NCBI GenBank assembly: GCA_043228905.1
Contig: JBHGNT010000002.1
Span: forward strand, 22,010,001-22,074,000
Source: Azolla caroliniana
Lineage: Eukaryota > Plantae > Polypodiophyta
DNA: 64,000 nucleotides
Direction of reading: 5' to 3'
Shown: piece by piece, positions 39,239-64,000 of the stretch
How positions within the stretch are numbered: position 1 is the first letter of the stretch
Layout of the letters: every line of letters starts with the position of its first letter
Made by a program: the position numbers and the translations under genes
The notes under the pieces: model-generated
Database searches by the model: none
Told to the model about the DNA's origin: nothing
The model's input: the letters and a program-made list of their open reading frames with translations, nothing else

Positions 39239-42200
39239 TGTCACGTTGTTACGCGCGTGCGTGTAGAAGGGCGGGACCACGGGGGTCTTGGACTAGGGAG
39301 TGGAGGAGAAAGATTAGCTCAAGAGGAGAAGAGAACGAATATGACAATATGATAGAAGAAGAAGATGCAATCAAGATACTTAACAAGAAGTTCTATTAAG
39401 AAATGAACGATTACAACAAATGGTGGCCGCCATGGCCGCACCAAACGACTATATGAAAAACCCTAAAGGAAAACCCAAGAAGAAAAGCCTAACCGAAACC
39501 CTAACCCTAAAATGAAATTGGAAGAAGTAGAACCCTCGACTAAGTGGTATACCTTACTCACACAAAATAGGCAACCCCCACAATGGTGCCTTCTCTCTCC
39601 TTTTATAGCACAAGGAGGGAAGACCGCTTACAAAAGTGAGACTAAAATATCCCCTTTCATTCAAATGGGATATTTGCCTTGATTTGGGGGAGGGTGAGAT
39701 TGATGGCCCCTTAACTCCCACCTCCTCACAAACAACTAGGTACCTATGTACCGCATAGTACCTCTCTCTCTCTCTCTTTCTCTCGCGTGGATGTGCGTAC
39801 AACCACATCACCTTTATACCTTTATTACTATTACAAATACATTATGTACGTGTGCAACGTTGTACATCGCTCTTTGGCTTTCGTTGCTCGAGTTTCCGCT
39901 TGTGGACGAAAATCTTCACGACATCCGCCCCCACCTAACCGCACATCCTCCGGTATGTGCCAAAACATAGGGGAGAGAACACGAGATTTTCGGCCACGAC
40001 GACCGACCGAGTCCTTAGTGTCCTCGTGGGCCCGCCCGGCTTTGTCTTCCACTTCGAGCAAGACCACCCCATCCTCACGAACCGCCGCCGCCTTCCGGCC
40101 CACCATCCTCGCCGAATGGTCTCGAACCGTCGGCGCCATCCGATCCGCCACACTCGACGATGTTCGCCGAGTCGTTGCCTCGACCCGATCCGCCACGTCC
40201 ACCGTGGGTCCTTGAACCACCAACTACATCCGACCCGCCGTATCCGATGCCCGTGCTTTCCTCCCTGTTCGGTCCTCCCGAACGCCGTCGCCGACCCGGT
40301 TGCTCTTCCTTTGTCCGCCTCGTATATCCTCCGGATGCACTCCCGGTCGCATGCCAGATTCCGCCCTTTGCGTGCCGCACACCTCGGCGTGCCGACTCTC
40401 TCCGCTCCGCGCTTGCCTTCCGTAGGCTTTCCCCGTATGTCGATGTTGCCCTCCAAATGCGTGCTCGTGCTTCGGTCCTTCGATGACCCCATCACGCGTT
40501 TTTCGCTTTCCCCTTTTTCGCCGTGCTCTGTCGTAGTAGAGCGTATCGTCATCCCGACCTCCGTGTCGGTGTCCCTCGAGGCTCTCGTTATCGCCTCGCC
40601 TCGACTTGCGCCCTCTTGGCCCGCTTGGCCTTGTATGCCCTCCGGGAAGCCGCCGCGCTTTCTCTTCCCGGTGTGTACCCCGTTGTTCTCTGCGCATCTC
40701 CTCCGTTTTCCTAGATATGACTCTCCGCTCATGCCGATCGCGCTCGGCCCATGTCGTCGATCTTGGTGTTTCGCCGCGCCGTCCTTTGTCTCGCGCTTGC
40801 CTCTCGAAGGCTTGACCCAACCGTCATCGTCGGTCAATTGTTGTCGCCCATCCGCCGTATGCATGCTTGTGTCTTGGCCCTCCACCGGCCGTATTGCATG
40901 CGTCTCGTGTCGTGCTTCCGCCGTAGACCCGACCTCCGCGTCAGTCTCCAACTCCTCGCCGCCACCCACCGCTTCTTCGTTCTCCTTTCGATCCGCGACC
41001 GCCGATGCCTCACGGGTAGGTGTGGAGGGTTCCTCCCACTCTCGGTTTACCACCGAGTCCTCGCCTCTCAAAGGCTCAATCGGTCCACCGTTTCCGGTCA
41101 CTCGTTGACGCTCTCTCGGATGCATGCTCGTTCTTGGGCCCTTCACCGACCGTAGTGCATGCTTCGTGTTACACCCTTCATCTGCCGTAGACCCAACCTC
41201 CGCGTCGGCCACCAACTCCTCGCCGCCACCCGCCGTCTCTCCGGTCTCACGTTGATCCGCAACCGCCGAAGTCTGTAGAATGGGTGTGGAAGGTCCCTCT
41301 CGCTCTCGGTATTCTAGCAAACCGTGATCACCGTGCCCACTAGGCCTCCTTCTCGCTCTCACCGGCTCCCACCGTAACCGTACCCGGCCGGCTACGAATC
41401 GATCAAACAATCCCGGTCTTGCCGGCTTCCTTCGGTTCGTGCCCGGTTGATCGGCCCCCGCTTCACTCTTCTTCCGCTCCGCCTCCCGGTCGGGTCGGTT
41501 CCCGACTCGCTCCTCGATGCCGCTCCGGACCTCTCCTTCGGTCTTTTCGCACGTGCCCACTCTGGGCCTCTCATCCTCACGGCCACCGCCCATCTCCCCG
41601 GTCTTATGTCCGCGCTCGGGCGCAACCGCCGAAGTCTCCGGCCCCGGTGTCGAGGGATCTCGCCTCCGTCCGCTACAAACCTCCTCTTCGTCATTTCGGT
41701 TGCCCGCCTTGCCGCCGCCACCGTCCGTCTCTCTAGGTCTCACACCGGCTCTCGGGCCGGTTGCCGGAGTCTCTAGGACCGGTGTGTGGAAGGTCGCGGC
41801 ACCGCCGCTCGTCTCCTCTTCTTCCTCGATTTCGCAAGCCTCGAGTATGCTCGCGAAATCCTCGTAGAACGTTTCGGGCAACCGCGTCCCGAAACTTTCG
41901 CCCACTCTCGAAGTGGCATCCATTGCTCCGTAGATATCGGCCTCATCCATGGCCGTCCTCTTTCCACAAGTCGAGAGGGTCGCTCGCTCCACACCCTCTC
42001 CCACATCGTTGCCGTGGTCGTCCGCCTTGTCGCCGCCACCGTTCATTACCCTAAGTCTCACGCGGGCACTCGGGCCAGCCGCCGCGGTCTCTTGAACCGG
42101 TGCGTGTAAGGTAGCAACGCCACCGCTCGTCGATGATATGCCCGTAGCCACCTCCATTCGGACATCGTCGTCCGTGGCTACCCCGCCTCCGTATGTGCAA

Positions 42201-44086
42201 GCATCAATTATGCTTGCCGCCTCCTCTTCCACGGTCTCCATACCGTCGTCTCGGTTGCCCGCCTTGCCGCCGCCACCGCCCGTCGCTCTAGGTCTCACGC
42301 CGGCAATTGGGCCGACCGTTGGTGCCTCTAGGGCCGGTGTGTGTAAGGTTGCGGCACTGCCGCTTGTCTCCTCCTCCCTCGATGTTTCGGGCCGCCATGT
42401 CCCGAATCCGTAGTTACCGGCCTCCATGGCCGTCCATTCGCCGCAAGACGAGAGAGTCACTCTTCCCGCACCCTCTCCCACATCGTCGCCGTCGTGGTCG
42501 CCCGCCTTGCCGCCGCCACCGCCCGTCACTCTAGGTCTCACACCGGCTCTCGGGCTGGTTGCCGGAGTCTCTAGGCCCGGTGTGCGTAAGGTTGCGGCAC
42601 CACCGCCCGTCTTCTCCCCGCTCGATGTTTCGGGCCTCCATGCCCGAACTCCTTCATGTTCGCTCGAATCGGCGATCGCCGCCTCACCGTCCCCGACCTC
42701 GTCCTCGGTCGATCTTTCTCCGCATGTCGAGAGGGTGGCTCGCTCCGCACCCTCTCCCGTGGTACCGATGTACCATTCTCTTTCGGCCTCCTCATCCTCC
42801 GATCGCCTCCGGCCCGACTCCATAATAAGCCCTTCTTCGGCTTCGATTTTCCCCTTCACAAGCTCGCATGCCTCCCGTATTAGTGCTTCTAGGTCTAGCT
42901 CCTCCGAACCGTTTTGCGTTGAGCTCTCTTCCGGCGGTAGTGCGTACTCACTCGCCGCTCTCTCTTCTCCACCGTTCGCGGGCCATGTTGTTGCCGACCG
43001 CTCCCCATCGGGTTGCCCGCATACCCACTCCGGTTTCGCGTATCCATACGCTTCCAATAGAGCTCCCTCGAAAGACTCCCATGACTCGTGAGCTTCTCGT
43101 AGCTCCTTGACGTCCTTGTGCACCGATACGGCCGCCACTCGCGGAAAATACTCTAGTCGCATCGCCTCGTCCACGCCCCCTTTTGCCATCTCGGCCTTGT
43201 AGGCTCCCAAAATTTTTAGGACCTCATTCCCATTGAACCGGCCGACTCGATCGACCACCCTTTCGACAGCTTGTTGAGCCGCATCTCGCTTCGCCATCTT
43301 CCGTCCGGCTTCCATCACGATTTTTGCCATCATCTCCTCGAAGTCGAAGTCTTCTTCCATTTCCATGCTCCCTTGCCGCCCTTCACGTCGGGTTGACCAT
43401 CCGTTGTCGCGTTGTTACGCGCATGCGTGTAGAAGGGCGGCACCACAGGGGTCTTGGACTAGGGAGTGGAGGAGAAGATTATCTCAAGAGGAGAAGAGAA
43501 CGAATATGACATTATGATAGAAGAAGAAGATGCAATCAAGATACTTAACAAGAAGTTCTATTAAGAAATGAACGATTACAACAAATGGTGGCCGCCATGG
43601 CCGCACCAAACGATTATATGAAAAACCCTAAAGGAAAACCCAAGAAGAAAAGCCTAACCGAAACCCTAACCCTAAAACGAAATGGGAAGAAGTAGAACCC
43701 TCGACTAAGTGGTATACCTTACTCACACAAAATAGGCAACCCCCACAATGGTGCCTTCTCTCTCCTTTTATAGCACAAGGAGGGAAGACCGCTTACAAAA
43801 GTGAGACTAAAATATCCCCTTTCATTCAAAGGGGATATTTGCCTTGATTTGGGGGAGGGTGAGATTGATGGCCCCTTAACTCCCACCTCCTCACAAACAA
43901 CTAGGTACCTATGTACCGCATAGTACCTCTCTCTCTCTCTTTCTCTCGCGTGGATGTGCGTACAACCACATCACCTTTATACCTTTATTACTATTACAAA
44001 TACATTATATACGTGTGCAACGTTGCACATCGCTCTTTGGCTCTCGTTGCTCGGGTTTCCGCTTGTGGACGAAAATCTTCACGACA
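39239..44086 (-). mobile_element. Non-autonomous gag-only LTR element (type B), 4848 bp, inserted in the helper RT
   Basis: LTRs 39239-39923 and 43405-44086 with few differences; TSD CCGT; PBS tggtcaacccgacgtgaa; PPT aggtgggggcgga; no pol. Confidence 0.95.
39935..43366 (-). CDS. 1143-aa protein: about 110 aa of Gag N-terminus plus a long repetitive low-complexity tail
   Basis: Uninterrupted ORF filling the internal region; VGRFNG..AYKAEM..WESFEGALLEAY matches helper Gag; ATLHTPxLETPAxGPRAGVRPRxTGGGGGKAG-like repeats occur four times. Confidence 0.8.
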   Translation of the reverse strand: MEMEEDFDFEEMMAKIVMEAGRKMAKRDAAQQAVERVVDRVGRFNGNEVLKILGAYKAEMAKGGVDEAMRLEYFPRVAAVSVHKDVKELREAHESWESFEGALLEAYGYAKPEWVCGQPDGERSATTWPANGGEERAASEYALPPEESSTQNGSEELDLEALIREACELVKGKIEAEEGLIMESGRRRSEDEEAEREWYIGTTGEGAERATLSTCGERSTEDEVGDGEAAIADSSEHEGVRAWRPETSSGEKTGGGAATLRTPGLETPATSPRAGVRPRVTGGGGGKAGDHDGDDVGEGAGRVTLSSCGEWTAMEAGNYGFGTWRPETSREEETSGSAATLHTPALEAPTVGPIAGVRPRATGGGGGKAGNRDDGMETVEEEAASIIDACTYGGGVATDDDVRMEVATGISSTSGGVATLHAPVQETAAAGPSARVRLRVMNGGGDKADDHGNDVGEGVERATLSTCGKRTAMDEADIYGAMDATSRVGESFGTRLPETFYEDFASILEACEIEEEEETSGGAATFHTPVLETPATGPRAGVRPRETDGGGGKAGNRNDEEEVCSGRRRDPSTPGPETSAVAPERGHKTGEMGGGREDERPRVGTCEKTEGEVRSGIEERVGNRPDREAERKKSEAGADQPGTNRRKPARPGLFDRFVAGRVRLRWEPVRARRRPSGHGDHGLLEYREREGPSTPILQTSAVADQRETGETAGGGEELVADAEVGSTADEGCNTKHALRSVKGPRTSMHPRERQRVTGNGGPIEPLRGEDSVVNREWEEPSTPTREASAVADRKENEEAVGGGEELETDAEVGSTAEARHETHAIRPVEGQDTSMHTADGRQQLTDDDGWVKPSRGKRETKDGAAKHQDRRHGPSAIGMSGESYLGKRRRCAENNGVHTGKRKRGGFPEGIQGQAGQEGASRGEAITRASRDTDTEVGMTIRSTTTEHGEKGESEKRVMGSSKDRSTSTHLEGNIDIRGKPTEGKRGAERVGTPRCAARKGRNLACDRECIRRIYEADKGRATGSATAFGRTEQGGKHGHRIRRVGCSWWFKDPRWTWRIGSRQRLGEHRRVWRIGWRRRFETIRRGWWAGRRRRFVRMGWSCSKWKTKPGGPTRTLRTRSVVVAENLVFSPLCFGTYRRMCG

Positions 44087-46068: not shown

Positions 46069-48052
46069 TGCTTAACGAATTTGACGAAAGCAGGTACGAC
46101 GGGGAGTGGCTCCAAATCGGGAGGTTCCTACGGGCGATGACGCCGGACGCAGCGTGGACAAGAGAAGAGGCGAGCTGGGTACGGAAAAAGGCGTACCGAT
46201 TCTTCCTACGGGACAGGTGCATATGGAGGCACCCAAAGAAAAGAAACAACATCCTGCTCTGAGTAGTGGCAAAGGAAGAAGAATAGGAGGAATTACTGGC
46301 GGCATTTCACGAGAGTCCCTGGACCGGGCACCGCGGAACGTGGGCCACATTTGAGAAGCTGAAGGAGAAGTACTGTTCGCCGAGGCTGTACCGGGATGTG
46401 CATCGGTTCTTAACGACTTGCGAAAGCTGTCAGATGCACTCCGTAGTCCGTCATCGGGACGAACTACAGCCGACCTACCCGCCTACGGTCCATTTCAAGT
46501 GGATGGTGGACTTGGTGACAATGCCGATGGGAGTAGGACAGATGCGATACCTGGTGCTTGCGTGAGAAGATTTAACGAACCAGGTGGAAGGCCGTGCACT
46601 GCAGAACAAGACAACCGCGGCGGTATGCCGGTTCCTGACCGAACAAGTAGTGTGTCGGTACGGGTGCATCGGGAAGATCGTGGCGGACCGGGGAGAGCTG
46701 GATGCGCGGGAAGTTGAGGAGTTGTTCGACCGGCTAGGGGTCAAACTCTCCCTCACTACGGCGTACAATCCAGAAGCGAACGGGAAGGTAGAACGTGGGC
46801 ATGGGCCGATTGTAAAGGCGTTGGTGCGTGCGTGTGGAGGGCAGGTCAGGAATTGGCCGCGGCTCCTTCCTTACGCACTATGGGCGGACCGAACTATGCA
46901 CAATTCGGTGACAGGGTTTATACCGGCAGAGCTGATGTATGGACAGAAGCCGATCATGCCGGTGGAATGGACGGTTTCTTCATGGGCGGCGGTAGATTGG
47001 AAGGACGAGATGAGCCGGGAGGACTTGCTGGCGGCGCGGATTCGGCAACTCGAGCAGAGGCCGGAGGACATAAAAAGGGCAAAGGAAAAGCTGCGGGCGG
47101 CAAGGGAGCGGAACAAGACCCGGTTCAACCGGACGCACCGGTTGCGAACCAAGAAGATCGAGGAAGGTGACTGGGTCTTGGTGTACGACAACAACCTCGA
47201 CAATCAGCACAAGGCGGTGCGAAAGTTCGCGAGGAGATGGTTTGGGCCCTACACGGTGACGAGCGCGAACGACAACGACACGTACCACCTTGCGGAAGTC
47301 GACGGGACACGGTTAGCGGTACCGGTGGCCGGGAAGCGGGTCAAAGTGTTCAAGAAGCGGTTCGAAGACGAGCCAGAGCCGGCGAGCGAGAGCGACAACG
47401 ACGATCGGTTTGGGCCCGACGAAGAATCGGAGAGCGACGAGTGAAGCCGGTTTTGTTCGGTGTCTACCCGTCTTTGGCGCATGCCGGTGGATGCGCGGTT
47501 TGGTGGGGGTGGATGTCGTGAAGAAAACGGGCCATAGGCGGAATCAGAGAAAAAGGCACATGAACCGGCTCTTACATGGGTGGACACGAGAATTGATATT
47601 TTGTACATAATTCATAATTAGGCCGGGTAATGTAAATACTAGGTAGTACACGTTTCCTAGGGGATTTGTGCGTATCTCTGCCGAAAGGGACAGGGAATAA
47701 AGCGATTTGACAAGGGGGGACGGTCTCCCCTCGACGAACTATTTAAGGAAGGAGAGAAGGAAGAGTAAGGGGGGCGTGTGAGCAAGGACGAAGTGTTGCA
47801 GGATCGAGTGACAAGCTCTCTCTCCTCCTCTGATCTTCATTTTCTGTGGGTGTTGGGAGTTTGACGCCTCTGCTTGGTGGGTAGCCCGTGCGCTGCCAGC
47901 AGAGGCTCTCCCTTCTACGTTTTTTTGGGTCCAGTGTGTTCCGTCTGTGTGCGTGAGTAGGGTCCCCGTGTCGGGTCCATCGCCGGCTTGCTGGTTGTAA
48001 CCGTCAGAGTTTGTAATCTCTTGATATTGTAATCGACTGTTATTGTAATTAG

Positions 48053-48122
<70 letters not shown>

Positions 48123-48941
48123 CCTCGGTTCAAGGCCCCCGTGGTCCCGCCTCTTTCTGCACGCGAAGTGCGTGACAACACAACAACGCGCCCTCAGTTG
48201 AGCAACCTGCACCGTCTGTGCCCACGATTCCCTCACTTGCCCTCTTTAATATTTGGTAGTAGTTAGACACGAGCGATATATATACATATACATATGTATA
48301 TATATATGTGTGGTTGGTGACTATTTCCTACCAAATCGTAATGAGGCCCAATGAAGGACTCACGATTGTTAGAGACGGTGCTAGGGCGTGTTTCAATAAT
48401 CCGATGCGATCGGCATCGTCAAATTATTATCCTCACAAAATAGTGTGCCCTTAACTAACCTAGCTTTGACCAGCCTCTATCACGTATAGGTCAGGTAGTT
48501 CGAATTTCTAGCCCAACTCTATCATGTCTAACCTAGGAGTTTGTCACATCTAACCTAGCTCTCTCCAACCTTTGTCAAGTCGGACCCCCGACTTTGTTCT
48601 TGCTTCTGTCACGTCTAACTTGGCCCAAAGTTGCTAACTCAACTGACTTTTTTTTATAACCCGGACCCCCCCTTTCTAACCGGGCGCAAGTTTCGAACCA
48701 AGTTATTTGTTTCTAACCCTAAACATATTCAAAAGTCAAAACCTCTTGGTTTTCAATATAAAAACTCCACTCACCAAAACCTTGGGCCATCATCGAATGT
48801 AAACAAAAAGTCGGAAATCATTGCAAACACCTAAGCTTCTCATGTTTCATCTATCGCAAAAAATTTAGCCAGTATTTTGAAGAGACTAGAACCTTGAAAG
48901 ATCACAAAATTTTAGTTACGAAAAACTTTGAAGATAACACA

Positions 48942-49278
48942 TGTCATGAAGACATACATTTTGGCTTATCAAGAGTTGAACCCACAACTTCTTGGTCTAT
49001 ATGTTGAACCTTTAACCATTGTAATAATATATATGATATATAATTATAATAATTATATTGTTAGTTATTACAAGATATTATGAAATATTCTAGACATCTA
49101 GAACATTATAGAATAATTTAGATTGTTCTAGAATATTCCAAATATCTTGTAATAACTGAAAATATAATTATTATAATTACACATCATAAATGTTATTACA
49201 ATGGTTAAAGGTTCAACACATAGACCAAGAAGTTGTGGGTTCGACTCGTAATAAGCCAAAATGTATGTCTTCATGACA
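48942..49278. mobile_element. 337-bp palindromic element made of two inverted Ty3 LTR left ends
   Basis: Arms of about 150-165 bp; TGTCATGA..TCATGACA termini; 5-bp TSD ACACA; arms homologous to the LTR start at 51186. Confidence 0.88.
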
Positions 49279-50268
49279 ACACATATTTTACAAAACCAAA
49301 AACTTCAAAGATCATGAGAGCGCAATAATCTAATAATCTAGATCTTCACATTGAAATGATTTTCAGATTTCCACCACCACAAAAATATCCGTCACTAAAA
49401 CCATTACAACCCTAGAAATATCAGCTACCATAAAAAACTTTAATCATGCATGTTCTGAGATTAAAATCTCAAAGTTTTAGATATAAAAACTTTAGTCACC
49501 AAAAACCTAAACAATGCTAGAATGTAAAGAAAATGTTAGAGATCATGGCTCTTGTTTAGAAGATAGCAAAATACACCCAGAATTTTTGCAACAATTACCA
49601 TTAGAGTCCCTTGATGTCAATGTCAAGCTATCACAATGCAAACACCCAACCTTCTTAGTCTTACATATCGGCAACCAACTCTTAGCACAACAAGAACCTC
49701 TTTGTACGTGTGTTTTGGTCTGATAAGTTTTTGCAAAATTTTGAGTGTGGCACCTCTTTTATGACAAATTTGTTGTTTCTGACTTATGAACCTCTTTCTA
49801 GTATGTTGATTGTTGTTGGTGCACCGAAATCGTATAACTACTTTTGCACTTCTAACAATAAGTTCCACTAATACTCAACAACAACATTGTTCATCTATCT
49901 CGATCCTTGCTCGACCCATTGAATTGCTTCTATAGTATGATATGCTTTAGACTTCAATTGTTCCCTTTCTTCAACTTATGCATTCAACTCTAGTTCTACT
50001 TTTGTTGAGGCATCATCCATTCACATTTGGGTTGCATGATTATAAATGGTAATGACCCACATAGGAATGGCCTATAACTTTCTATGATCATCCGGATTCG
50101 GAGTGAATGGTTACATTTACTTACAAGGCCTTGGTAATCATAATAACAACATTGGAGCGAAACATTATACCATAGAGTTGTGGTAATGCTCAATATTCTA
50201 ACGCAATATCTAGCCTCATCCACAAATTGGACTGCGTTGTTATTAGTCACATACCTTTCTAATATCCT

Positions 50269-51185: not shown

Positions 51186-53325
51186 TGTCATGATGACATA
51201 CATTTTGGCCTTACAAGGATTCGAGCCCAAGACGTCTTGGTCTATATGTTAGACCTTTAACCATTATACTAACATATATGATGTATAGTTATGATAAATG
51301 TATTATTAGTTATTACAAGATATTTAGAGTATTTTAGAAGATTCTAGAGTATTCCAGAACATTCTAGAGTGTTCCAAAACATTCTAGGATATTCCATTAT
51401 TATATTAAATATCATAAATATCTAAAATATTCTAGAACATTCTAGAATACTCCATAAGGACCTATAAATAGGTGTTTATTCATTCATCACAACTCATTCT
51501 CTTTCCATTTCTCTCTCTCTCTCTCTCTCTCTCCCTCTCTCCCTCTACCTTCTATTGTCATCTTATTTTTCTCTCCTATTCTCGAGTCACGACAGTTTGA
51601 ACCGATCCAACTCTTTTCTTCTTCTCCAACTTCTTCTTCTTATCTTAACCTTATTCAGGCAAATCTTGCAATTTTTCTATCGCAACTATGGAGTTCGTCA
51701 GCAAGCAAGAATATATGCGTGTTCTCTCCGAGCTCGAAATGCTAACAACCAAATTCGTGGCACTAGAGCATGAAAATCAAAGATTGTTGGGAGACCTACA
51801 ACAAGTAAGTGCTGAGAAAGTACAAAAATATGAAGAATTATCTCAACGGGTGCATCAATTGGAGACTACTCTATTGCAACGACAAACGGCGGAAGTTCAA
51901 ACCTCGCCAAAGGAGCCCAAGATTAGTTTGCCGGCGAAGTTTGATGGTACAAGGTCTCAATTTCGTGGATTTTTAAATCAGGTATGGCTTGTGATTAAAT
52001 TGCATCCTAGCCGTTACCCAACTGATGTTGCTCATGTGGGTCTAGTTGGTACCTTGTTAACGGGTACTGCATTAGCGTGGTTTGCACAACTCCTAGAGAA
52101 GCACTCACCATTATTAGAAGATTTTGAAGGGTTTATTAATGAGTTCCAAGACAATTTTGGAGACACTGATAGTATGAGGACTACAATAAACAAAATTCGG
52201 CGATTACGACAAGGAGATCGTCCTGCTTCCGCTTATGCTGCAGATTTTCGCCTTCTAGCATGTGATATTCCATGGGACGAGGCATCATTAATGGACCAAT
52301 TTCGTCAAGGTCTGCACAATGATGTAAAGGATTTACTTCTTACCTTCCATGATGATCCAAAATCTCTTACCGAAGCAGTAAGTTGGGCCGTACGACGTGA
52401 CAATCGCTTATTTGAGCGGCGTTCTAAGCGCCAACAAATGTTACACTTCCGACCAATAGAAACATATGCTTCGGTGGTTGCAACTCCACCCGAAGTATGA
52501 AAGTCAAGTGTGGTGGAAGGCCCTACTCCAATGGAAATCGAGACAACACGACGTTGAGGACCATTATCGGATGTTGAAAAGCAACAACGGCGAGCGAATT
52601 GTCTATGCCTCTATTGCGGTGGTCCAGGGCATATTGCTGTGAATTGTCCACATAAACCACGACGACAAGTTAACCAAGTAAGTGCTCATGACAATCCCAT
52701 CTCAATTTCTGCCCCGCCTTCTCGTAAGCCAAGTAGGCCTAGTAGTCCCTGTCATAAAAATACATTTGATGTCTTGAGCCAATTAGATGATGTGTTAAAC
52801 GAGTAAGTTCGGCCAAAATTGGAGCCATTTGGTTGGACAACCCTAGGCATGTAACGTCTGTCCCTAGTTGTGGTTCCATTTCATCCGGTCAAGTTAGTCG
52901 AGTTTTCTCTGCACAAGTTGAACTTAACACATCTAGGTGCCATCGAGTCCCAACTTCTGCCCTCTTAGACTCTGGAGCCAACTCTTGTTTCATGGATCGT
53001 GAGTTTGCTGTAATGCATAATATTCAGTTGCATAAGCTCCTAAGCCCAGTGTCTGTCGGAGTCATTGATGGACGCCCCATAGCATCAGGTGATATAGTCG
53101 AAGAGTCTGAACCAATTCATGTAGTCCTAGGCAATTTGGCTAGTGTCATCTCATTCAACATCATTAGTAGTCCAGAGCACTCCCTAGTTCTTGCTCTTCC
53201 ATGGTTTGAGCTACATAACCCAACCATTGATTGGAGAAAAAGAACCATTGAAGAGGTCACAATACAGTCTGAGCCTCTTAAAACTCCAACAAAGGATATG
53301 ACATTCCAAAAGATTTCGACAATCT
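51186..53325 (+). mobile_element. 5' part of a Tcn1/Tf1-like Ty3 element (LTR 51186-51594, gag, protease)
   Basis: TGTCATGA..CACGACA LTR with tataaata; gag from 51688 (EPKISLPAKFDG, CLYCGGPGHIAVNC, internal stops); protease ALLDSGANSCF; no tRNA-type PBS. Confidence 0.85.
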
Positions 53326-56300
53326 TGTTGAGAGACAAGCTCAACATCGACCGGATCGGCTGAAGAAGCCGAGGACCGGATCGGTTGGGACCGATCGGTT
53401 AGGTCGAGTGCATAAACCGGGAGGTCGTTAGGAAAGATATTCCGTGAGGAATATATTTGGGAGTTAGTGTAGGAGCTCTTGATGAGCATTGAAGTACTGT
53501 CAGTACTTCGGTCAGTCCTTCTAGGACTTGTATAAAAGTGCTCTCTGAGCACGTCTTATGTACACAGATTGAGTATTATTGTTGAATATAGTTTTTGTGT
53601 TTCTCTCTCTGTCTCTCCTGTGTATACCGTGTAAGCCCAAGCTCTCCATTGAACCTGAGTTTCCTTCCTTCTGTTCGGTCTTCATACTTGCTTCCGCACG
53701 TTACTTTCTACATGGTATCAGAGCGCGAGGGTTGAGAACCTCTCTGCAGCCGACACAGCTTGACGAAGAAGAACGAGAAGAACGATGGATAGAGGCATGG
53801 CGAGCTCGCTTCCAACAGAGAAGCTCGACAGAACCAACTACGCGTCTTGGTCCTACAAGATGCACCAGTACCTGCTCGGGCACGGCTACTGGAATTATGT
53901 CGAAGGAGCTAATGGCGCGGCACCCGAATCGATACACAGAGACTTCCCGTCGTGGGAGCAATCGGCGAGCAGGGTATTGTACTGGTGATGCGGCCGATGA
54001 GATCAAGGAAGAAGGCACCGAAGTGATGCCAGCAACTCCGAACCCTTCGGAAACAGGGGGAGTCGAAGCGATGAGAACCGGCAAGGGAAGGCCATCACGG
54101 AGTGCTGGTACTGTGGCAAGAAAGGCCACAAGGAAAGTGAGTGCTGGAAGAAGCGCGCCGATTCGGAGAGAACTGGTTCCGGGAATGGCTCCAGACATAC
54201 CGACAAGGGAAATCGGCAGCGATCACACTACGCCCAAGACTCTGGGAGAGCCGGAGAAGGGACTGCCTTCGTGACGAGACACGAAGCAAACTCAATGAAA
54301 CAGAGCACCCCGAGATCGGACGAGGTGTGGTATGTAGACTCCGGCGCGTCAAACCACATGACGAGCCATAAGGAGTGGTTCTCGTACCTTGAAAAACCGA
54401 TACAACCTGGAGTAGTCGCAACAGGAGACGACACTCCGCATCCAATCGCGAATGTCGGAGAAGTTCCCCTTAGCCATGTCGGGCAGAAAGGGAAACTCAT
54501 GAACGTGTTGCACGTTCCGACAATCACGAAGAACTTGGTCTCGGTCGGACAGATCGTCGACCAAGGGATGGAGGTTCGGTTTACACACCTCGGGTGCTTC
54601 ATTAAGGAAGAAGGCTGTGTGATTGCGCAAGGGCGCAGAGACGGGAGGATGTTCATCCTCGACTCCACTGACGGCGGCACCGCAATGTTCGCGAAGGGAC
54701 AAAAGACCGAGTCGGACATCGACTTGTGGCACAAGCGGATAGGCCACGTCAACTACCAACGGCTTCAAGATCTGCAAACGAAACAGGTAGTGTTCGGATT
54801 GCCCAAATTTAGTGGCCGAAAGGCACAAATTTGTGAAGCCCTGCCAGCTCGGGAAGCAACACCGACTTCCCTTCCCCAACGAGCAAAACCGGAGCTGGAA
54901 CAAGCTCAACCTTATACACTCCGATGTATGGGGACCGACACAAAACGTTAGTCTTGGCGGGAGCCGATATTTCGTCTCCTTCATCGACGACCACACCCGG
55001 CACACGTGGATCTACCTCATTGAGAGGAAGAGCGAAGTCTTCGACTATTTCCGGGACCTCAAAGGGTTCGTGGAAGCCGAAACGGGACGAAAGATCAAGT
55101 GTCTGCGGTCGGATGGCGGAAAAGAGTACTTTTCCGGTCAATTCAACGGTTACCTACAACAAATGGGAATTCGCCGCGAATTCAGTTGTAGATACACGCT
55201 GGAATAGAACGGTGTGGTTGAGAGAAAGAATCGGTCAGTTGTGGAAGCGGCACGGGCAATGCTGGAGGAGAAGAGCTTGCCCAAGTTCTACTGGGCCGAA
55301 GCGGTAAGGACCGCGATATACATCCAGAACCGGATCGGAGACAAAGTGTCAGCGCACGAGCTATATTTCGGAACGAAGCCGAACTTGCGACACTTGAGGG
55401 TGTTCGGTAGCATTGCGTATGTGCATGTACCGAAGGAGAAGAGGAGGAAGCTAGACGCAAAGGCCGAGAAGTGCATCTTGGTCGGTTACTCGGACAAGCA
55501 GAAGGGTTATAAGTGCTATAACCCTCGCACCAAACAAGCGCGTGTCAGCCGCGATGTTGTGTTTGACGAGTGCGCGTCCTGGTACCTGCCCCCCACTCCA
55601 ATACGAGCTCTGACGATGAGGTCAGCGAGGCCGAGATGCCTCCGGATGAGCCCGAAATCAAGACCCGCGAAGAGTGTCCGATTTCACTCCGGTTAAGTGG
55701 ACCGATTGGACGACTGAGTCGGTACGACCAGTCCGATGAAGAGCTGGCGAGTAGTGGAGACTCGGCCGTGCATTCCCCGCGCAGGAAACCGAGGAGACGG
55801 CTTACGCGCAAAGAGAAAGGAAAGAAGAAGGTGTCGGATTCCGGCACGGATAAGAACGAGTCAGACCGACGCGAGTCCGACTCTGAGGGAACCGGTGATG
55901 GGTCTTTAAAGGTGAAGACCGCGTCGACCGAGAAGGCCTCGACATTGGCTAATGTGAGATTACGCCGATCTACCCACCAGAAGAACCCAGTTGTGCGGTT
56001 CGGATACAACGAGTACATGGCGCATCATTATGCGTACATAACCCGTGTAGCGGAAGTGCGTGAGCCGGAGAGCTACGCAGAAGCGGCTAAAGACGCGAAT
56101 TGGCGTGCCACGATGGAGGAAGAGATGCACGCATTGGCGGAGAACGAGACCTGGGACCTGGTTGACGCACCGAAGGGGGTAAAACCGATCGGGTGTAGGT
56201 GGGTGTACAAGATCAAGTACAACACCGATGGCTCGGTCAACCGGTACAAGGCTCGGTTAGTGGCAAAGGGCTACGCGCAGAAACACGGCATCGACTACGA

Positions 56301-57466
56301 TTAGACGTTTGCGCCGGTCGCGAAAATGACGACCGTCCGTGTTTTGCTCGCAGTAGCCGCGGCCAAGGGGTGGCACTTACATCAGATGGATGTAAAGAAT
56401 GCGTTCCTGCAAGGTGACCTTGAGGAACAGGTGTACATGGTGCAGCCCCCCGGATTTCACTCCGGAACGAACTCCTCGGCAGTATGCCGACTGAAGAAGT
56501 CCCTTTACGGACTGAAGCAAGCCCCGCGTGCCTGGAACGCAAAGATCACGCAACAACTGCGTCGGATGGGCTTCGTCACGTCAAAATCGGACTCTTCCCT
56601 GTTCATCCAAAAAGGTCGACTCGGACCGGTTAGTATTTTACTATATGTTGATGACTTGGTCATCACCGGCGCCGACCTAGGTGAAATCGACCGCGTGAAA
56701 CTCCAGCTTGCGGCATCGTTCGACATGAAGGATCTGGGGGACCTTCATTACTTCCTCGGGATCGAAGTGATCCGTACCACCGAAGGCATATTGATCAGCC
56801 AACGTCATTACGTGCTGAGTATGCTCTTCAAACTCGGGATGGCCAACTGTAAGTTCATCTCGACTCCTTTGGATAGAACCGTCAAGCTTCGTCCCGATAC
56901 GGGAAAGGTATGCAACTCGACGAGGTTCCGACAAATTGTCGGAAGCCTCATATACTTGACCATCCGGTCGGGGTGATTAGTCAGTTCATGGCGCGACCTA
57001 CCGAGGAGCACCTTCAGTGTGCACAACGCATACTTCGGTATGTCAACGGCACTAAGGACCGGGGACTGCTATATCGGACCGGTGCAGCCGCGCAGTTAGT
57101 CGGCTACACTGATGTTGATTGGGCTGGCAACGCCGCCGGTCGCCGATCCACGTCTGGATACGCGTTCTCCCTCGGGAGTGCCGCGATCGCGTGGAGCAGT
57201 AAGAAGCAGCTTACAGTTGCACTGTCGAGCACCGAAGCTGAGTACCGAGGAGCGGCTGTTACGACATGCGAAGCCATATGGTTGAAGCGGCTACTTAAGG
57301 ACCTGCAAGAGGAGGTGTCAGATCCAACGACGATCTACTGCGACAACCTCAGCAGCATCCAGCTCGCGAAGAACCCCGTTTTTCACACACGGACCAAGCA
57401 CATTGAGGTGCACTACAATTTCGTCCGTGAGCGTGTCCTTTCCGATGAAGTCAAACTTCAGTACGT
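53326..57466 (+). mobile_element. Ty1/copia, 5' LTR through RNase H, 3' end missing
   Basis: LTR 53326-53712; PBS tggtatcagagc; [58 protein letters not shown]; gag deletion, stops and frameshifts. Confidence 0.95.
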
Positions 57467-60400
57467 TGTCGCGTTGTTACACGCGTGCGTGGGGAAAGGC
57501 GGGACCACGGGGGTCTTGGACTAGGGAGCGACGGAGCGTAGGAAGTCGTGCTTCACTGTTTCCGGGGCATCCCAGAAGCACATCGAAAGCAACCGAAGGG
57601 AGAGAGAGAGAGAGCGTGCTTAACACTGACCCACGCACACACACACACGCACACACACACACCCCAACCCGACTCACGCCTTATGTACGGAAAACGCAGG
57701 AAAGGGTAGGCACCCGACGCCAACAACGACGCGAATATACACAGACAAACGTATATATATATATACATATAAAGGGAAGAATACATTCCCGACGTCGAGC
57801 CGGACTGAGGTAGGTTACAGTAGTCGTCTGCTGTCAAGCCGTCGTCGAGGAGCTCTCAGCTCGTCGCGCCAAGCGGGGTCTTGCACAGGAGGCCGAACCA
57901 AAGCAAACCATAAGCAAAACACGAAGAAGGAGAAGAAGAAGAAGAAGAACCTAACTTTAAACCTAACGGTATACCCTCTAATGCAAAATGGGCAACCCTT
58001 TCACAAAGGGTGTTCCCTTCCTTTTATAGAACAAGGACAGGGATGCGTTATAATGTGGGATAAACCCCAACTTACATGGGACCGTCTATCCCGACTTGAC
58101 TACTCTTCGGCGCCATAAAGGCGCCCTCGTTATTCACACTAAATTTACAAGGGTGAGCACACACGCTGCACCCCGCCGATGTAGCCAATGTTTCCTAGGT
58201 TCCGCCTCTGGCCGAAATTCTTCACGACATCCGCCCCCACTTAACTGCACGTCCACCGGTAAGTGCCAAATCTGGTTGAAGGGTGAGAGATTTCGGCCGG
58301 TGAGAAACCGGTCTCCCGTGATTCGCATCTCAGCTCACTGCCGGTTTGATCCGTCGGCTTCGAGTCTTCCTTCGCGCTCGCCTCCCTGTAGGCTCGTTCG
58401 ACCCGTCAATGGGTCCTCTGCCGCGATCTCCGTAGTATACGTACTTCCGTTGGCCCTTGTTCGGCCGTATGAACGCCCCGCTTCCCGCCGTATGCCCGAT
58501 GTCCTCCGTTTGAGGCATGCCCGTAGTGGCCCGCTTGGCCTTCGTTGTCCAATCGTGATGTCCTGATGGTCGTCCCATGTTGTTTCACGTTGCCTTCGTC
58601 CTTTCGCCACCTTCCTTCTCCATGGTCTTACATCGCCGCGTCGGCTCGAACCGCCATGGTCTCCGAAATACTGTGGAGGATCCCTTTCCGGCCTGATCGT
58701 GCATCTCCGCTCACCCACATACCGGTGTCCTTTGCATCCGAGGAGCACCCAGTAGTAGCCCGCTTGGCCCTTCCCGTCTTCGTGCTGCTGCAACAGGTCC
58801 CGAGTCTTCCGCTTGCCGTCGTCCCCTCGCCCGCCAGCTTGTCACCCCAGGCTTGCCGTGTCAGTCTTCGCTACTTCGACGGAGCTCCCGAGATCTACGA
58901 AGCGAGTGTGGAGGATCCTCCTCCGGCCTCTCTTGCCATCCCCTGACTCCGACCCTGTGCAGTCCACTAGGCACTTGTCACCTCATTCCCGGCACCTCCC
59001 TCGTGTCGTCTTCCGCTTCCTCTGTTCGGCACCGCCCATGCCGAACACTGTCCCGTAGTCACGCTTCGACCCGGCCTGCGATGGCCACTTGCGAGACTCT
59101 TGTTCTGTCCAAGGTGTGCCTTTCCGACCTGACACACCTCCCCGTGTTTGCCGCTACCGACTCCTTCCGAAACCTCGTGTCGTCGGGTCCCGTTCCCTGC
59201 CGCCACCGTCCTTCTCCATCGGTCTTACGTTGCCGCGTTGGCCGATCAGCCGGGGTCTCCGGATCGGTGTGAGGGTCCCATAGGACCGGACTCCATTTCT
59301 ATACTTGCCGAAATTCGGGTGTCTTTGTTTGAGTCCCTCCTGGACTCTCCTCGTGTCTTCCGCGTAGTCGGGTCTCGTTTCCCGCCATCACCTTCCTTCT
59401 CCCTCGGTCTTACGTTGCCACGTTGGCCGAATAGCCGGAGTCTCTGGTTGGTGTGGGGATCCCGTAGGACCGGACTTCCTTACGCCCATAGCCTTCGTCA
59501 CCTCGCCGCCACCGTCAGTATCTTGGTCTTATGTCGACCGCGTTGCCGACTGCCGAAGTCTCTAGATCCGGTGTGAAGGATCCTCCGTAGGCCGCCGATC
59601 CGTAGCCCTTGCCTTTGTCACCTCGCCGCCACCGTCAGTATCTTGGTCTTATGTAGACCACGTTGCCGACTGCCGAAGTCTCTAGAACCGGTGTGGAGGA
59701 TCCTCCGTAGGCCGCCCATTTGTATTCCCGACCTTGTCCCGGGTCGTCCTTTTCCGCATGCCGAGAAGGTGGTTTACTCCGCACCCTCTCCCGTGGTACC
59801 GACGTACCGTGTCCTCGGCCTCTTCGTAGGCCTGCTCTCTTCCTCCCTCCCGGAATGGTCATCCGGGAGTCCGCTCCACCCGGGTCCATTCGTCCTTCTC
59901 CGGATTGCCGAGTCCCGTTCTCCTGTCGCCACCGTCTTCTCTTATAGGACTCACGCCGGCACTCGGGCCTGCAGCCGGATCGGTGTAAGGAATCCCATAG
60001 GACCGGCTTCATTCTCTTTCCAAATCTCGACCTTCGCCCGGTCGGTCTTTCTCCCCATGTAAAAGAGGGTGGCTCGTCCCGCACCCTCTCCCGTATCGGC
60101 ACCTTTATGCCGAGTCCGGCCCCGATCGAACAATCCACGACCGGATTACGCTCCTTCCGTATCGGAATGCCGATCTCATCGTGTCGTGTCCGTCCCTGGC
60201 CTTCTCGCAGGCCGTTTCCCATCCGTCTTCGCTAGGATCGTGCCAGGACTCCTCGGTACCGCCATCCATCTCCTCGGTCTTACATGGGCATACGGGCCCG
60301 AATGCCGAGTTCTCCGGAATCGGGTCCGTGGGATTTCGTCCGCTCCTTCCCCGTATCGTCTCGCCGGTGATTCTTGGCCCTTCGCCGCCGCCTTCCTCCG

Positions 60401-62349
60401 CTTGGGACTCACATGGGCACTCGGGCCCGACTGCCATCGTCTCGGGAGCAAGTGTGGGAAGACACAAGGAATTGCCCGTCCGTTTTACGCCCTTATCCGT
60501 AGCCACCGGCTCTCCGTGGTCGGTGGTCGACTTCTTACCGATCGCGCAAGCCCCATCTGGGCTTGCTTCTTCAATGACCGGGATCTCGGGTTGACACGCC
60601 CGAAACCGTTGGTCCCAACGTTCCAGTTCCGAGATCTGTATCTCAGCCTCGTCCTTGGTCGTTCTCTCTCCGCAAGTCGAGAGGGTGTTTTGTTCCGCAC
60701 CCTCTCCCGTGGTACCGTTGTACCGATCTTCCGCCGTCGCGTGGGGCAAGTTCGTCTCCTCGGTCTCGGCTTCCGGCCTCGATCTTCCTTCTTCCTTGAG
60801 CATCGCTTTGAGAGCTTCGTACGCCTCCGCAATCCTGACCCCAACGCCGACCCTTGCCGACTCTCTTTGCCGTTCGGCCTCTTCCCGCTGTGATGGCACG
60901 CCGTCGCGTCCCTTCCTCTTAGCCCTCTCGGCTCGCTCATCATCTAGCCGTTGGCACACCCTTCCGACCTTCGACCAGTCCTCCGTAAGCCCATTCGCTC
61001 CATCATCGTCTTCGAGCTCAATCCCGATGGCTTCCCGATCCGCTCGGTCGATCGACCTGACGAATAAAAGGACTTTGTCCGCCCCCACCAAACCTTGTTC
61101 CCGCTCCGGGAGCCGAGCAAGCTGTCGCTCAAACTCTTGGAACGCCTTCCTCGCGCCTCGGTGGGTCTTTGCCGATGCTACCCATTGGTCGAAGTCGTGT
61201 CGTCCCCGGCTCTTCCGCCGTCCTCCGTATGCCTTCAGGAGCGCCTCTTCGAAGGCCTCCCACAAACCATGAGGCTCACGAAGCTCCTTTACTTCCGCAT
61301 GCATCCGGACCGCTACGACCCGACAAAAGAACTCCAGCCTCAACGCCTCGTCTACGCCACGCCCCTCCATTTCCGCGTTGAATGCTTCCAAGGAAGATGG
61401 GACTTTGTCCCCGTTGAAACGGCCGACTCTTTCGACCACTCGCTCAACCGCTTGTTGCGCTGCTTCTCGCCTCATCACCACTCATGCCGACTCCAACACC
61501 ACTTCGGCCACCATCTCCGCAAGGTCGTCTTCTTCCGACTCCATGCTCCCTTGCTGCCTTTCACGTCAGGTTCACCAAATATGTCGCGTTGTTACGCACG
61601 TGCGTGGGGAAAGGCGGGACCACGGGGGTCTTGGACTAGGGAGCGACGGAGCGTAGGAAGTCGTGCTTCACTGTTTCCGGGGCATCCCAGAAGCACATCG
61701 AAAGCAACCGAAGGGAGAGAGAGAGAGAGAGCGTGCTTAACACTAACCCACGCACACACACACACGCACCCACACACACCCCAACCCGACTCACGCCTTA
61801 TGTACGGAAAACGCAGGAAAGGGTAGGCACCCGACGCCAACAACGACGTGAATATACATAGACAAACGTATATATATATATACATATAAAGGGAAGAATA
61901 CATTCCCGGCGTCGAGCCGGACTGAGGTAGGTTACAGTAGTCGTCTGCTGTCAAGCCGCCGTCGGGGAGCTCTTAGCTCGTCGCGCCGAGCGGGGTCTTG
62001 CACAGGAGGCCGAACCAAAGCAAACCCTAAGCAAAACACGAAGAAGAAGAAGAAGAAGAAGAAGAAGAACCTAACTCTAAACCTAACGGTATACCCTCTA
62101 ATGCAAAATGGGCAACCCTTACACAAAGGGCGTTCCCTTCCTTTTATAGAACAAGGAAGGGGATGCGTTACAATGTGGGACAATCCCGACTTACATGGGA
62201 TCGTCTGTCCCCGACTTGACTACTCTTCGGCGCCATAAAGGCGCCCTCGATATTCACACTAAATGTACACGGGTGCGTACACACGCAGCATCCCGCCGAT
62301 GTAGCCAATGTTTCCCGGTTTCCGCCTCTGGCCGAAATTCTTCACGACA
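57467..62349 (-). mobile_element. Non-autonomous gag-only LTR element (type C), about 4.9 kb
   Basis: LTRs 57467-58229 and 61582-62349, visibly diverged; PBS tggtgaacctgacgtgaa; PPT aagtgggggcgga; flanks ACGT/ATGT; no pol. Confidence 0.92.
60105..61544 (-). pseudogene. Gag N-terminal domain plus low-complexity tail (TGA at codon 21; tail continues frameshifted towards about 58240)
   Basis: AAQQAVERVVERVGRFNG is shared with type B; KVLLFVRSIDR..GIELEDDDGANGLTEDW is shared with type A. Confidence 0.85.
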
Positions 62350-64000
62350 ATGTAAAGGCTATATTCAAAACGATATAATTACTATGTACATACAACTATG
62401 CTCAGTAGCATTATTTATACAAGTTCTCGTGGGACTGACAGAAGTACCCTGTACTTCAATGCTCACACGAGCATCAGACACTTACTACGAGACTATAATT
62501 GCCTAGTAGTCTACACTAATACTAGGCTTCTGGTTACTGATTGGATTCGGCTAACCGGCTCCCCAGCTCACCGGCTCTGTTGCTTGCCGGCTCGGTTGCT
62601 CACAGCTTACCGATCCGTCTCGCTTGCTGGCTCAGGCTTATTCAACCGATCCGGCTCCAGTTGAGCTTGCCGCTCAACACTCCCCCTCAAGCTCAACTTG
62701 AGGTTGGATCTTAGTGTCAGTCTCTGTGGCAGTCGGTTCTTCCAACCGACTTCTCCTGGCGTCACTTCGCCTTGCTCGCGCTCCGTGTCCGGTCCAGTTC
62801 TGTTTGCCGCGACCCCTCTTGTTCTGCACGCCTCGACCTTCTCGATCGGTATGTCTCCTCAATGGGCCCCTCTCAGCTCCTTTGCTGCTATGACTCCGGT
62901 GCTTATCGATCCATCGGTTTCTCCACGATGGCATCGACTTCCGCTGCATCCGTGTTTGCTTGGCCTTGAATTGATCCGGTTCTTCCGAATCGACTGTCTG
63001 CGATTCATTCTAGCTCTTGTCCGAATCGGTTGCTCCCGATTCTTCTTCTGGTTGCAAGCCCATTACCACATTGGACCATGTCCGGGTCTTGGCCTTCTTC
63101 CTTCGGTCGGCTCTGTCCTTCTTGACTTTGCCGCCTTCTGTTCTTCCCTCACCGGCGCAATCGGCAGTCTCTTTGCCTTTGCCCGTTCCGGTGTGTCTGC
63201 CCATTCTCCCCCTCAAGTGTGGCACATCGAGATGCTGAACACCAAGAATGTCGGTAAAGTGCTGCAACTTGTCTGATCTGAGCGGCTTGGTGAAGATGTC
63301 GGCAACTTGCCGATCCGTGTGAACATACCGTAGTTCAACTTCACCGCTCAGGACCTGCTCACGCACAAAGTGATAATGCACTTCTATGTGCTTTGTGGGA
63401 GCATGGAACACAGGGTTCTTGGCGAGTTGCATGTTGCTTATGTTGTCGCAGTAGACCAGAATCGGGGTCGATACCTCGATCCATAAGTCTTGCAGCAGTC
63501 GCTGAAGCCAAATGGCTTCACAGGTGGCAATGGTAGCGCCCCGATACTCAGCCTCAGTGCTCGATAGAGCAACTGTTGGATGTTTTTTGCTGCTCCACGC
63601 AACAGCCGCGCTACCTAAGGAAAACATATAACCGGAGGTTGATCGGCAATCTGATGCATCGCTGGCCCAGTCGGCATCCGTGTAACCGACGAGCTCTTCG
63701 GTTATACCTCGCCGGTATAACAATCCCCGGTCCTTCGTGCCGCTTACATATCGCAGTATCCGTTGCGTGCACTAAAGGTGCTCCATGGTCGGCTTCTGTA
63801 TGAACTGACTTATCACTCTGACGGGATAACTGATGTGAGGGCGTGTGATAGTCAGGTAAATAAGGCTTTCGACAATTTGTCAGAACCGTTTCTCGTTGCA
63901 GGCCGGTCCGGAGTTGGGACGGAGCTTTTGGTTCCGGTCCAAGGGTGTGGAGACAAGTCGGCATTTTGTCATGCCAAACTTGTACAGCATATTCAAGACG
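62350..64000 (-). mobile_element. 3' part of a Ty1/copia (RT end, RNase H, tail, partial 3' LTR 62350-62679)
   Basis: YTDADWAS, ALSSTEAEY, KHIEVHYHFVRE, QVADIFTKPL; PPT gcttgagggggag. Confidence 0.93.

What the first reader, a model, noticed from the sequence alone, without database searches (positions are those of the whole stretch)
48942..49278. Palindromic mini-element built from two inverted LTR left ends with an integrase-type TSD
Both arms match the first ~170 bp of the Ty3 LTR at 51186 (tgtcatga.gacatacattttggc..cttggtctatatgtt..acctttaaccatt..ttagttattacaagatatt). They join in the self-complementary tctaga-repeat zone. TG..CA ends and an exact ACACA duplication imply one integration of a molecule with two U3 ends. 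It may be a snap-back or template-switch cDNA, a two-donor integration followed by deletion, or a MITE-like family born from an LTR. If transcribed it would form a long hairpin able to yield siRNA against the parent family.
Basis: partly seen in the sequence, partly recalled or inferred. Interest (0 to 1): 0.75.

Follow-up and report, generated by a model that had tools for sequence, protein, structure and literature searches.

The report
Retrotransposon insert with two front ends
This 337-base piece is two back-to-back copies of the front end of a jumping gene's terminal repeat, flanked by a clean 5-base insertion scar; the same plant genome holds at least four more insertions with two front ends, one carrying a spliced copy of a host mRNA, so they were likely made by a copying slip during reverse transcription and likely inserted whole as dead-end products.

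Summary
48942-49278 is two inverted U3 (PPT-side) LTR ends with an exact ACACA duplication, and paralogues of the host repeat carry one ACACA. It is not a MITE family: no second copy of this junction was found. It belongs to a recurrent class in a self-priming chromovirus family. Seven two-U3-ended insertions were found (0.3-4.3 kb), each with its own junction; 5 have exact 5-bp TSDs and 2 match at 4 of 5. No TSD-flanked U5-U5 counterpart was found (suggestive only, p about 0.06). The arms differ by 10/138, more than from the nearest other copies, so they date from insertion. One sibling holds a spliced host mRNA between its U3 ends; another holds an unprocessed U5-GT/AA-U3 junction. Best reading (0.68): PPT-primed plus-strand DNA switches template at microhomology, here the TCTAGA array, copies back to the U3 start, and the two-U3 cDNA is integrated in one event. 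The parent is subfamily A (94-96%), not the 51186 LTR (about 80%). siRNA production is untested. The scan noted two-front-end copies before in two other genomes.

The parts
48937..48941 (+). Left target-site duplication ACACA
   Evidence: single in empty paralogues
48942..49107 (+). Left arm: U3 end (about nt 1-167) of a subfamily A LTR
   Evidence: nearest other copies 94.2% over 138 nt
49090..49121 (.). Junction zone in the self-complementary TCTAGA array (best break 49107-49119)
   Evidence: two-segment alignment against four reference LTRs
49108..49278 (-). Right arm: inverted U3 end (about nt 1-171) of the same subfamily
   Evidence: nearest other copy 95.7% over 138 nt
49279..49283 (+). 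Right target-site duplication ACACA
48720..49600 (.). Old, unrelated dispersed repeat that received the insertion (interrupted at 48942-49283)
   Evidence: paralogues at 70-82% identity that run from left to right flank without the insert
51186..51594 (+). 5' LTR of a subfamily B relative (not the parent); left TSD TTACT, its 3' LTR lies beyond the window with TTACC
51649..52500 (+). Gag of the subfamily B relative (Retrotrans_gag, Ty3_capsid)

Best explanation
The element is a dead-end insertion made of two inverted U3 ends of a self-priming Ty3/gypsy chromovirus, likely formed during reverse transcription and likely integrated in one step by the family's integrase. Shown: both ends are the PPT-defined U3 end, the TSD is real, the arms are as old as the insertion, and the genome holds other such insertions with different junctions. 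Inferred: a PPT-primed plus strand stalled about 170 nt in, in the self-complementary TCTAGA array. It paired there with a second plus strand (or folded onto its own 5' part) instead of completing the normal second strand transfer, and was copied back to the U3 start. The resulting linear DNA had two integrase-competent U3 ends. Without TATA, R, PBS or PPT it is predicted not to move again.
For: (1) Recurrence with precise ends. Seven two-U3-ended insertions: window ACACA, C2:4.66M CCGGA, C3:10.42M GCCGT, C3:24.23M TCCAA and C8:6.85M AGTGG are exact; C11:5.70M and C19:4.27M match 4 of 5. None carries an inverted copy of its flank. Junctions differ in each. (2) C3:24.23M holds about 580 nt of a host gene (2 of 2 candidates scored; the only other locus is C1:27.016M) with two GT-AG introns (131 and 87 nt) removed. 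The copy is antisense to a strand that starts at the U3 end, the polarity expected if a plus strand jumped onto mRNA and then onto plus-sense U3. (3) C8:6.85M holds a U5-GT/AA-U3 junction that keeps the 2-nt extensions of both cDNA ends (PBS offset 2 nt), so cDNAs were likely joined before integration. (4) Age: arm-to-arm 10/138 against 4.3-5.8% to the nearest other copies; no shared private substitutions in 6 of 6 palindromes; subfamily A same-orientation LTR pairs differ by 2.7-12.7%. (5) On C1-C9, 6 close outward-facing U3 pairs and 0 inward among 145 ends; 0 close outward U5 pairs among 87 ends. The genome-wide U5-U5 scan at 340-580 nt spacing found only one internal fold-back. (6) Both arms of C2:4.66M share a 10-bp deletion seen in no other locus among 109 arms (only its haplotig shares it), pointing to one donor. 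(7) R joined directly to an inverted U5 via the R:PBS complement at 5 distinct loci, a switch that follows from self-priming.
Against: No cDNA intermediate was observed. The strongest mechanistic clues come from sibling insertions, not this one. The U3/U5 asymmetry is weak (Fisher p 0.052 for all pairs, 0.14 for TSD-verified pairs; Poisson 0.06 genome-wide), and the two motifs differ in length and spacing range. Three further U3-inverted structures did not give a TSD: C15 matches 3 of 5; for C9:13.41M and C6:1.29M the left end was not found in about 10 and 20 kb. C8:5.18M is an internal inversion within normal U3/U5 ends, so not every U3-U3 palindrome is an outer-ended insertion. Spliced filler can also be captured at a break during repair (recalled).
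Confidence: 0.68

Rival explanations
1. Two-donor concerted integration: integrase joined the U3 ends of two separate cDNAs to one target, and host repair trimmed and joined the two tails at microhomology (TCTAGA), sometimes capturing filler.
For: Predicts precise ends, a TSD, arms as old as the insertion and varied junctions. The 16-nt U3 tip at C8:6.85M lacks clean microhomology. End-joined cDNAs exist in this family.
Against: In 6 of 6 palindromes compared, both arms come from the same sublineage, and C2:4.66M shares a private deletion. It needs a separate U3 preference to explain the lack of U5-U5 products. The spliced-mRNA filler has the polarity of one continuous reverse transcription.
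Confidence: 0.17
2. Post-insertion template switch in a normal solo LTR: a replicating strand folded back at TCTAGA, copied U3, and returned at the 8-bp terminal inverted repeat, replacing R-U5 and keeping the TSD.
For: The LTR has a near-perfect 8-bp TIR (TGTCATGA / TCACGACA) and palindromic arrays. Many copies show internal inversions inside normal ends (L038, L063, L079, L092).
Against: It predicts arms younger than the insertion with shared private changes; arm distance was at or above nearest-copy distance in 5 of 6, with 0 shared private substitutions. It predicts mirror U5-U5 products and some run-on into the flank; neither was seen. It cannot make a spliced mRNA filler.
Confidence: 0.12
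3. A MITE-like family born from an LTR that spreads as a unit.
For: Short, with long inverted termini and a TSD.
Against: No second copy of this junction: the three other full-length matches are 75-81% alike, from subfamily B, with other junctions. The TSD is 5 bp like the parent's. No PBS, PPT, R or TATA.
Confidence: 0.02

Closest known systems
Template-switch complex LTR insertions (Sabot and Schulman 2007, PMC1950507; whole text read)
   Same: Aberrant cDNA from template switching during reverse transcription, integrated in one event and recognised by flanking 5-bp TSDs and similar outer ends.
   Different: Those have three direct LTRs, two internal regions and normal U3/U5 outer ends, and are rare (1 in rice, 2 in about 400 Triticeae insertions). 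Here the outer ends are both U3, inverted; the smallest products have no internal region; about 4 of 111-117 insertion clusters on C1-C9.
Tcn1 clade / Tf1-sushi self-priming chromoviruses (Neumann et al. 2019, PMC6317226, passages; Novikova et al. 2010, PMC2864245, passages)
   Same: The parent has gag, PR-RT-RH-IN, SH3 and chromodomain, TG..CA LTRs of about 410-470 bp, a 5-bp TSD, and an 11-nt R sequence complementary to the PBS.
   Different: Clade placement by tree was not run. The passages read do not describe two-U3-ended products.
Solo LTRs and TRIMs (TRIM paper PMC4717578 seen as search listing only; definitions recalled)
   Same: Small, non-coding, LTR-derived, with a 5-bp TSD and TG..CA ends.
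   Different: A solo LTR is U3-R-U5; a TRIM has direct LTRs with PBS and PPT. This has inverted U3 only.
MITEs (definition recalled)
   Same: Short, with inverted termini and a strong hairpin.
   Different: Single copy, retrotransposon-derived ends, integrase-type TSD, no sign of remobilisation.
Inverted-duplication silencer loci such as Mu killer (recalled, from no call)
   Same: An inverted duplication of a transposon end that could give hairpin RNA against the parent family.
   Different: No transcription, small RNA or silencing is shown here, and there is no promoter inside.

Membership tests
Ty3/gypsy chromovirus (parent family) | PR-RT-RH-IN order with C-terminal chromodomain | tested here: met
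   on one subfamily B copy: RVT_1, RT_RNaseH, Integrase_H2C2, rve, SH3_Tf2-1, Chromo E 2.5e-13
Tcn1 / Tf1-sushi group (parent family) | Self-priming: transcript start complementary to the PBS, no tRNA PBS | tested here: met
   11-nt complement 29-33 nt after TATA in 7 of 11 5' LTRs; 7 nt in one; none of 7 nt or more in three
Tcn1 / Tf1-sushi group (parent family) | RT-RH-IN phylogenetic placement | not tested
   No reference Tcn1 sequence was fetched; the closest solved structure is Ty3 Gag-Pol
Integrase-made LTR insertion | TG..CA ends and a 5-bp TSD verified by an empty site | tested here: met
Solo LTR | One U3-R-U5 unit | tested here: not met
   No TATA, R or U5; second inverted U3 instead
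TRIM | Two direct terminal repeats | tested here: not met
   The repeats are inverted
TRIM | Internal PBS and PPT | tested here: not met
MITE | Terminal inverted repeats, under about 800 bp, non-coding | tested here: met
MITE | Many copies of one internal structure at different sites | tested here: not met
   (40 of 943 candidates scored)
MITE | Ends recognised by a DNA transposase | not testable with these tools
   The ends are LTR U3 ends; no binding assay possible
Sabot-Schulman template-switch complex | Single-event TSD with matching outer ends | tested here: met
Sabot-Schulman template-switch complex | Three direct LTRs and two internal regions | tested here: not met
Hairpin siRNA locus | Transcribed and yields small RNAs from both arms | not testable with these tools
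   Only the folding potential is shown

The most novel reading that the evidence does not exclude
Self-priming chromoviruses have a regular side pathway in which plus-strand strong-stop DNA transfers to plus-sense templates (itself, a second plus strand, or host mRNA). This yields integration-competent cDNAs with two U3 ends at a few percent of insertions. It is a one-step route from an LTR retrotransposon to inverted-repeat elements, a route for retrocopying host mRNA between inverted ends, and a way for a family to plant hairpins able to silence itself.
Probability: 0.4. Interest if true: 0.72.

Novelty: new variant of a known kind. Interest (0 to 1): 0.52.

Why it matters
LTR insertions are modelled with one U3 and one U5 end, and detection tools look for direct repeats (general knowledge), so two-U3 products would be missed or mislabelled as MITEs. 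A genome with several dated examples, one with a spliced mRNA and one with unprocessed cDNA ends, gives fossil evidence on a rarely seen step: how second strand transfer fails in self-priming elements, and that their integrase accepts U3/U3 substrates. It makes a direct test possible in fission-yeast Tf1. It also offers a source of long hairpins against the parent family, though no RNA is shown.

Tried and rejected
MITE family: rejected. Assembly artefact: rejected, because the arms differ at 10 of 138 sites and the TSD is verified. Contigs of three studies also run from the left flank 29 letters into the element; that is below the tool's 31-letter bridging rule, and one run may be the source, so it is a hint only. 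No RNA holder listed: no evidence either way on expression. An alternative junction (left arm 139, right arm 198) was considered and scored lower than the central break. The 51186 LTR as parent: rejected. Simple inversion between the two LTRs of one element: explains C8:5.18M but puts a PPT, not a TSD, outside the second arm, so it does not fit here. Left ends of C6:1.29M and C9:13.41M were not found; both are left out of the count. C15:5.01M is left out (TSD 3 of 5). C347 is treated as a haplotig of C2:4.66M (98.6% over 3.3 kb) and counted once. One search dropped 5 of 109 arms (3 haplotig rows, one fold-back arm, one old fragment); its script mislabelled L079 as subfamily A, and the same-orientation pairs were not all verified as intact. 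One search merged listings that are complete for C1-C5 and cover only the GGCC and GGCT variants on C6-C9; 3 U5 rows on C12 were dropped. C8:6.85M was found by fetching its locus, not by the pair scan. Literature: 10 searches. Searches returned 0 papers; some searches returned listings, none of which described two-U3-ended insertions by title or abstract start. Two primary Tf1/Ty1 papers were not held, and most older subscription literature is not searchable. PMC2939329 and bioRxiv 2022.12.06.519325 were read as passages only; no supplements were read. A sequence look-up in earlier findings gave nothing.

Full report
Observation. Window 48942-49278 is 337 bp, starts TGTCATGA, ends TCATGACA and is flanked by ACACA on both sides. 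The arms are 143 nt at 92% complementarity with 51 nt between; the RNA fold is -203.7 kcal/mol, z -35. The flank is an old dispersed repeat with 24 matches. Of 8 paralogues examined at the insertion point, two show a single ACACA followed by the right flank, four run on with a variant pentamer, and two are uninformative. The duplication is therefore a true TSD.

What the arms are. In many genomic copies the arm directly follows the purine tract GAGGGGGGATAA, so it is the U3 end. The family has two subfamilies: 378 exact U3-end 13-mers in all, with 10 control hits, of which 247 are B and 49 are A by the next bases. Both arms are A, 94-96% identical to the nearest copies. The 51186 LTR is B and about 80% alike. 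One B copy encodes PR-RT-RH-IN-SH3-chromodomain. In 7 of 11 5' LTRs an 11-nt sequence 29-33 nt after the TATA box is complementary to the PBS, which starts 2 nt after the LTR. This is the self-priming layout that Neumann et al. (PMC6317226, passages) assign to the Tcn1 clade of mosses and club-mosses; I did not test the clade by tree or determine the organism. The best junction is at element position 166-178, in the TCTAGA array. The element has no TATA, R, PBS or PPT motif.

Not a family, but a class. The whole-element search scored 40 of 943 candidates; the only other full-length matches were 75-81% alike. Pattern scans for outward-facing U3 pairs 200-500 nt apart gave 7 hits at 6 distinct loci (overlaps), and the end listings gave two more at 0.7 and 1.0 kb. 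After inspection, seven insertions have two outer U3 ends: the window (ACACA); C2:4661055-408 (CCGGA, also on haplotig C347); C3:10420657-1377 (GCCGT); C3:24225382-6392 (TCCAA); C8:6851486-5807 (AGTGG); C11:5700635-1080 (GTCAA/GTCGA); and C19:4274432-775 (GATTT/AATTT). Five are exact, each at about 1 in 985 by chance. Junctions differ. Four other U3-inverted structures are not counted: C8:5.18M (internal inversion within normal ends), C15 (3 of 5), and C9:13.41M and C6:1.29M (left end not found). On C1-C9 the systematic scan gives 4 TSD-verified pairs among 111-117 clusters of ends, roughly 3-4% (a rough figure).

When it formed. The arms differ at 10 of 138 sites; each is closer to unrelated copies (4.3-5.8%), and they share no private substitution. 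Five subfamily A same-orientation LTR pairs differ by 2.7-12.7%. Arm distance was at or above nearest-copy distance in 5 of 6 palindromes. A later fold-back in an already aged solo LTR predicts the opposite.

Direction. On C1-C9 there are 6 outward and 0 inward U3 pairs within 1.5 kb among 145 ends, and 0 outward U5 pairs among 87 ends. Genome-wide U5-U5 scans at 340-580 nt gave one hit, an internal fold-back in a normally ended element. This asymmetry is only suggestive (p 0.05-0.14).

Mechanistic witnesses. At C3:24.23M, U3-R-part of U5 is followed by about 580 nt that match one other locus in three pieces at 91-97%. The two gaps are GT-AG introns of 131 and 87 nt, and an inverted 81-nt U3 end follows. 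Read from the left, this is one strand that begins at the PPT-defined end, copies an mRNA antisense after a switch at about 4 nt of microhomology, and then copies plus-sense U3 to its start. At C8:6.85M a rearranged element is joined U5-GT/AA-U3 to a further U3 segment capped by a 16-nt inverted U3 tip. GT and AA are the bases beyond each LTR end, so unprocessed cDNA ends were likely ligated before integration. R joined to inverted U5 through the R:PBS complement occurs at 5 distinct loci. Both arms of C2:4.66M share a 10-bp deletion found at no other locus among 109 arms.

Mechanism. Shown: ends, TSD, age, recurrence, spliced filler. Inferred: a PPT-primed plus strand stalls in the TCTAGA array, pairs with a second plus strand or itself, and is copied back to the U3 start, and the integrase inserts the two-U3 duplex (0.68). 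Two-donor integration with repair (0.17) explains the ends and age but fits less well with the single-sublineage arms and the filler polarity. A post-insertion switch (0.12) conflicts with the age and the filler. A MITE family (0.02) has no copies.

Known systems. Ten library searches showed no paper on two-U3-ended insertions by title or abstract start; older subscription papers are not covered, and two primary papers were not held. Two unreviewed notes of this scan report two-front-end copies in other genomes; I did not check them and do not count them as support. Contigs from three studies run 29 letters across the left junction, a hint below the tool's bridging rule. Expression and siRNA are untested.

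Verdict. A real feature and a new variant of a known kind: a recurrent, probably dead-end by-product of retrotransposition with unusually good fossil evidence for its origin. Interest 0.52.

Noticed in passing
L052:1183-2193 (G000:C3:24225382-24226392): Two-U3-ended insertion (TSD TCCAA) carrying a spliced three-exon antisense copy of a host gene at C1:27.016M: an LTR-mediated retrocopy between inverted ends.
   Followed up: yes
L061:1487-5808 (G000:C8:6851486-6855807): Rearranged element joined by an unprocessed U5-GT/AA-U3 junction to an extra U3 segment with a 16-nt inverted U3 tip; TSD AGTGG inside a tandem repeat.
   Followed up: partly
L034:1968-2617, L026:1504-1920, L033:2080-2558, L051, L079: Recurrent junction of R to an inverted U5 through the self-primer/PBS complement, often with loss of the PBS and the start of gag.
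   Followed up: partly
L038:952-4402, L063, L092, L095: Many family copies have internal inversions and deletions yet keep normal outer ends and exact or near-exact TSDs; rearrangement before integration seems frequent in this family.
   Followed up: partly
L053:4981 to L057:1019 (G000:C15:5.013-5.0185M): Near whole-length element whose 3' LTR R-U5 is replaced by an inverted U3; flanks match 3 of 5.
   Followed up: partly
window 51186-53340 and L059: The subfamily B element is interrupted at about 53340 by a copia element and ends about 7 kb beyond the window (TSD TTACT/TTACC); its 5' LTR has lost the self-primer part of R.
   Followed up: partly
window 43402-43474, 47473-48170, 57464-58230, 61579-62349: LTR-like copies of a second, GC-rich family in both orientations; a pair 4.1 kb apart encloses long ORFs without Pfam hits (e.g. 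60105-61481; also 39935-43414).
   Followed up: no
window 56962-57467 and 63322-63827: Inverted 72-75% match, probably two copia elements in opposite orientation.
   Followed up: no
L005:1250-1501, L067:1082-1375, L082:1732-1878: Tandem duplications that copy flank plus the first 30-95 nt of an LTR next to the insertion.
   Followed up: no
L034:1440-1890: Fragment that reads like small-subunit rRNA (recalled resemblance) between family LTR pieces, possibly another captured RNA.
   Followed up: no
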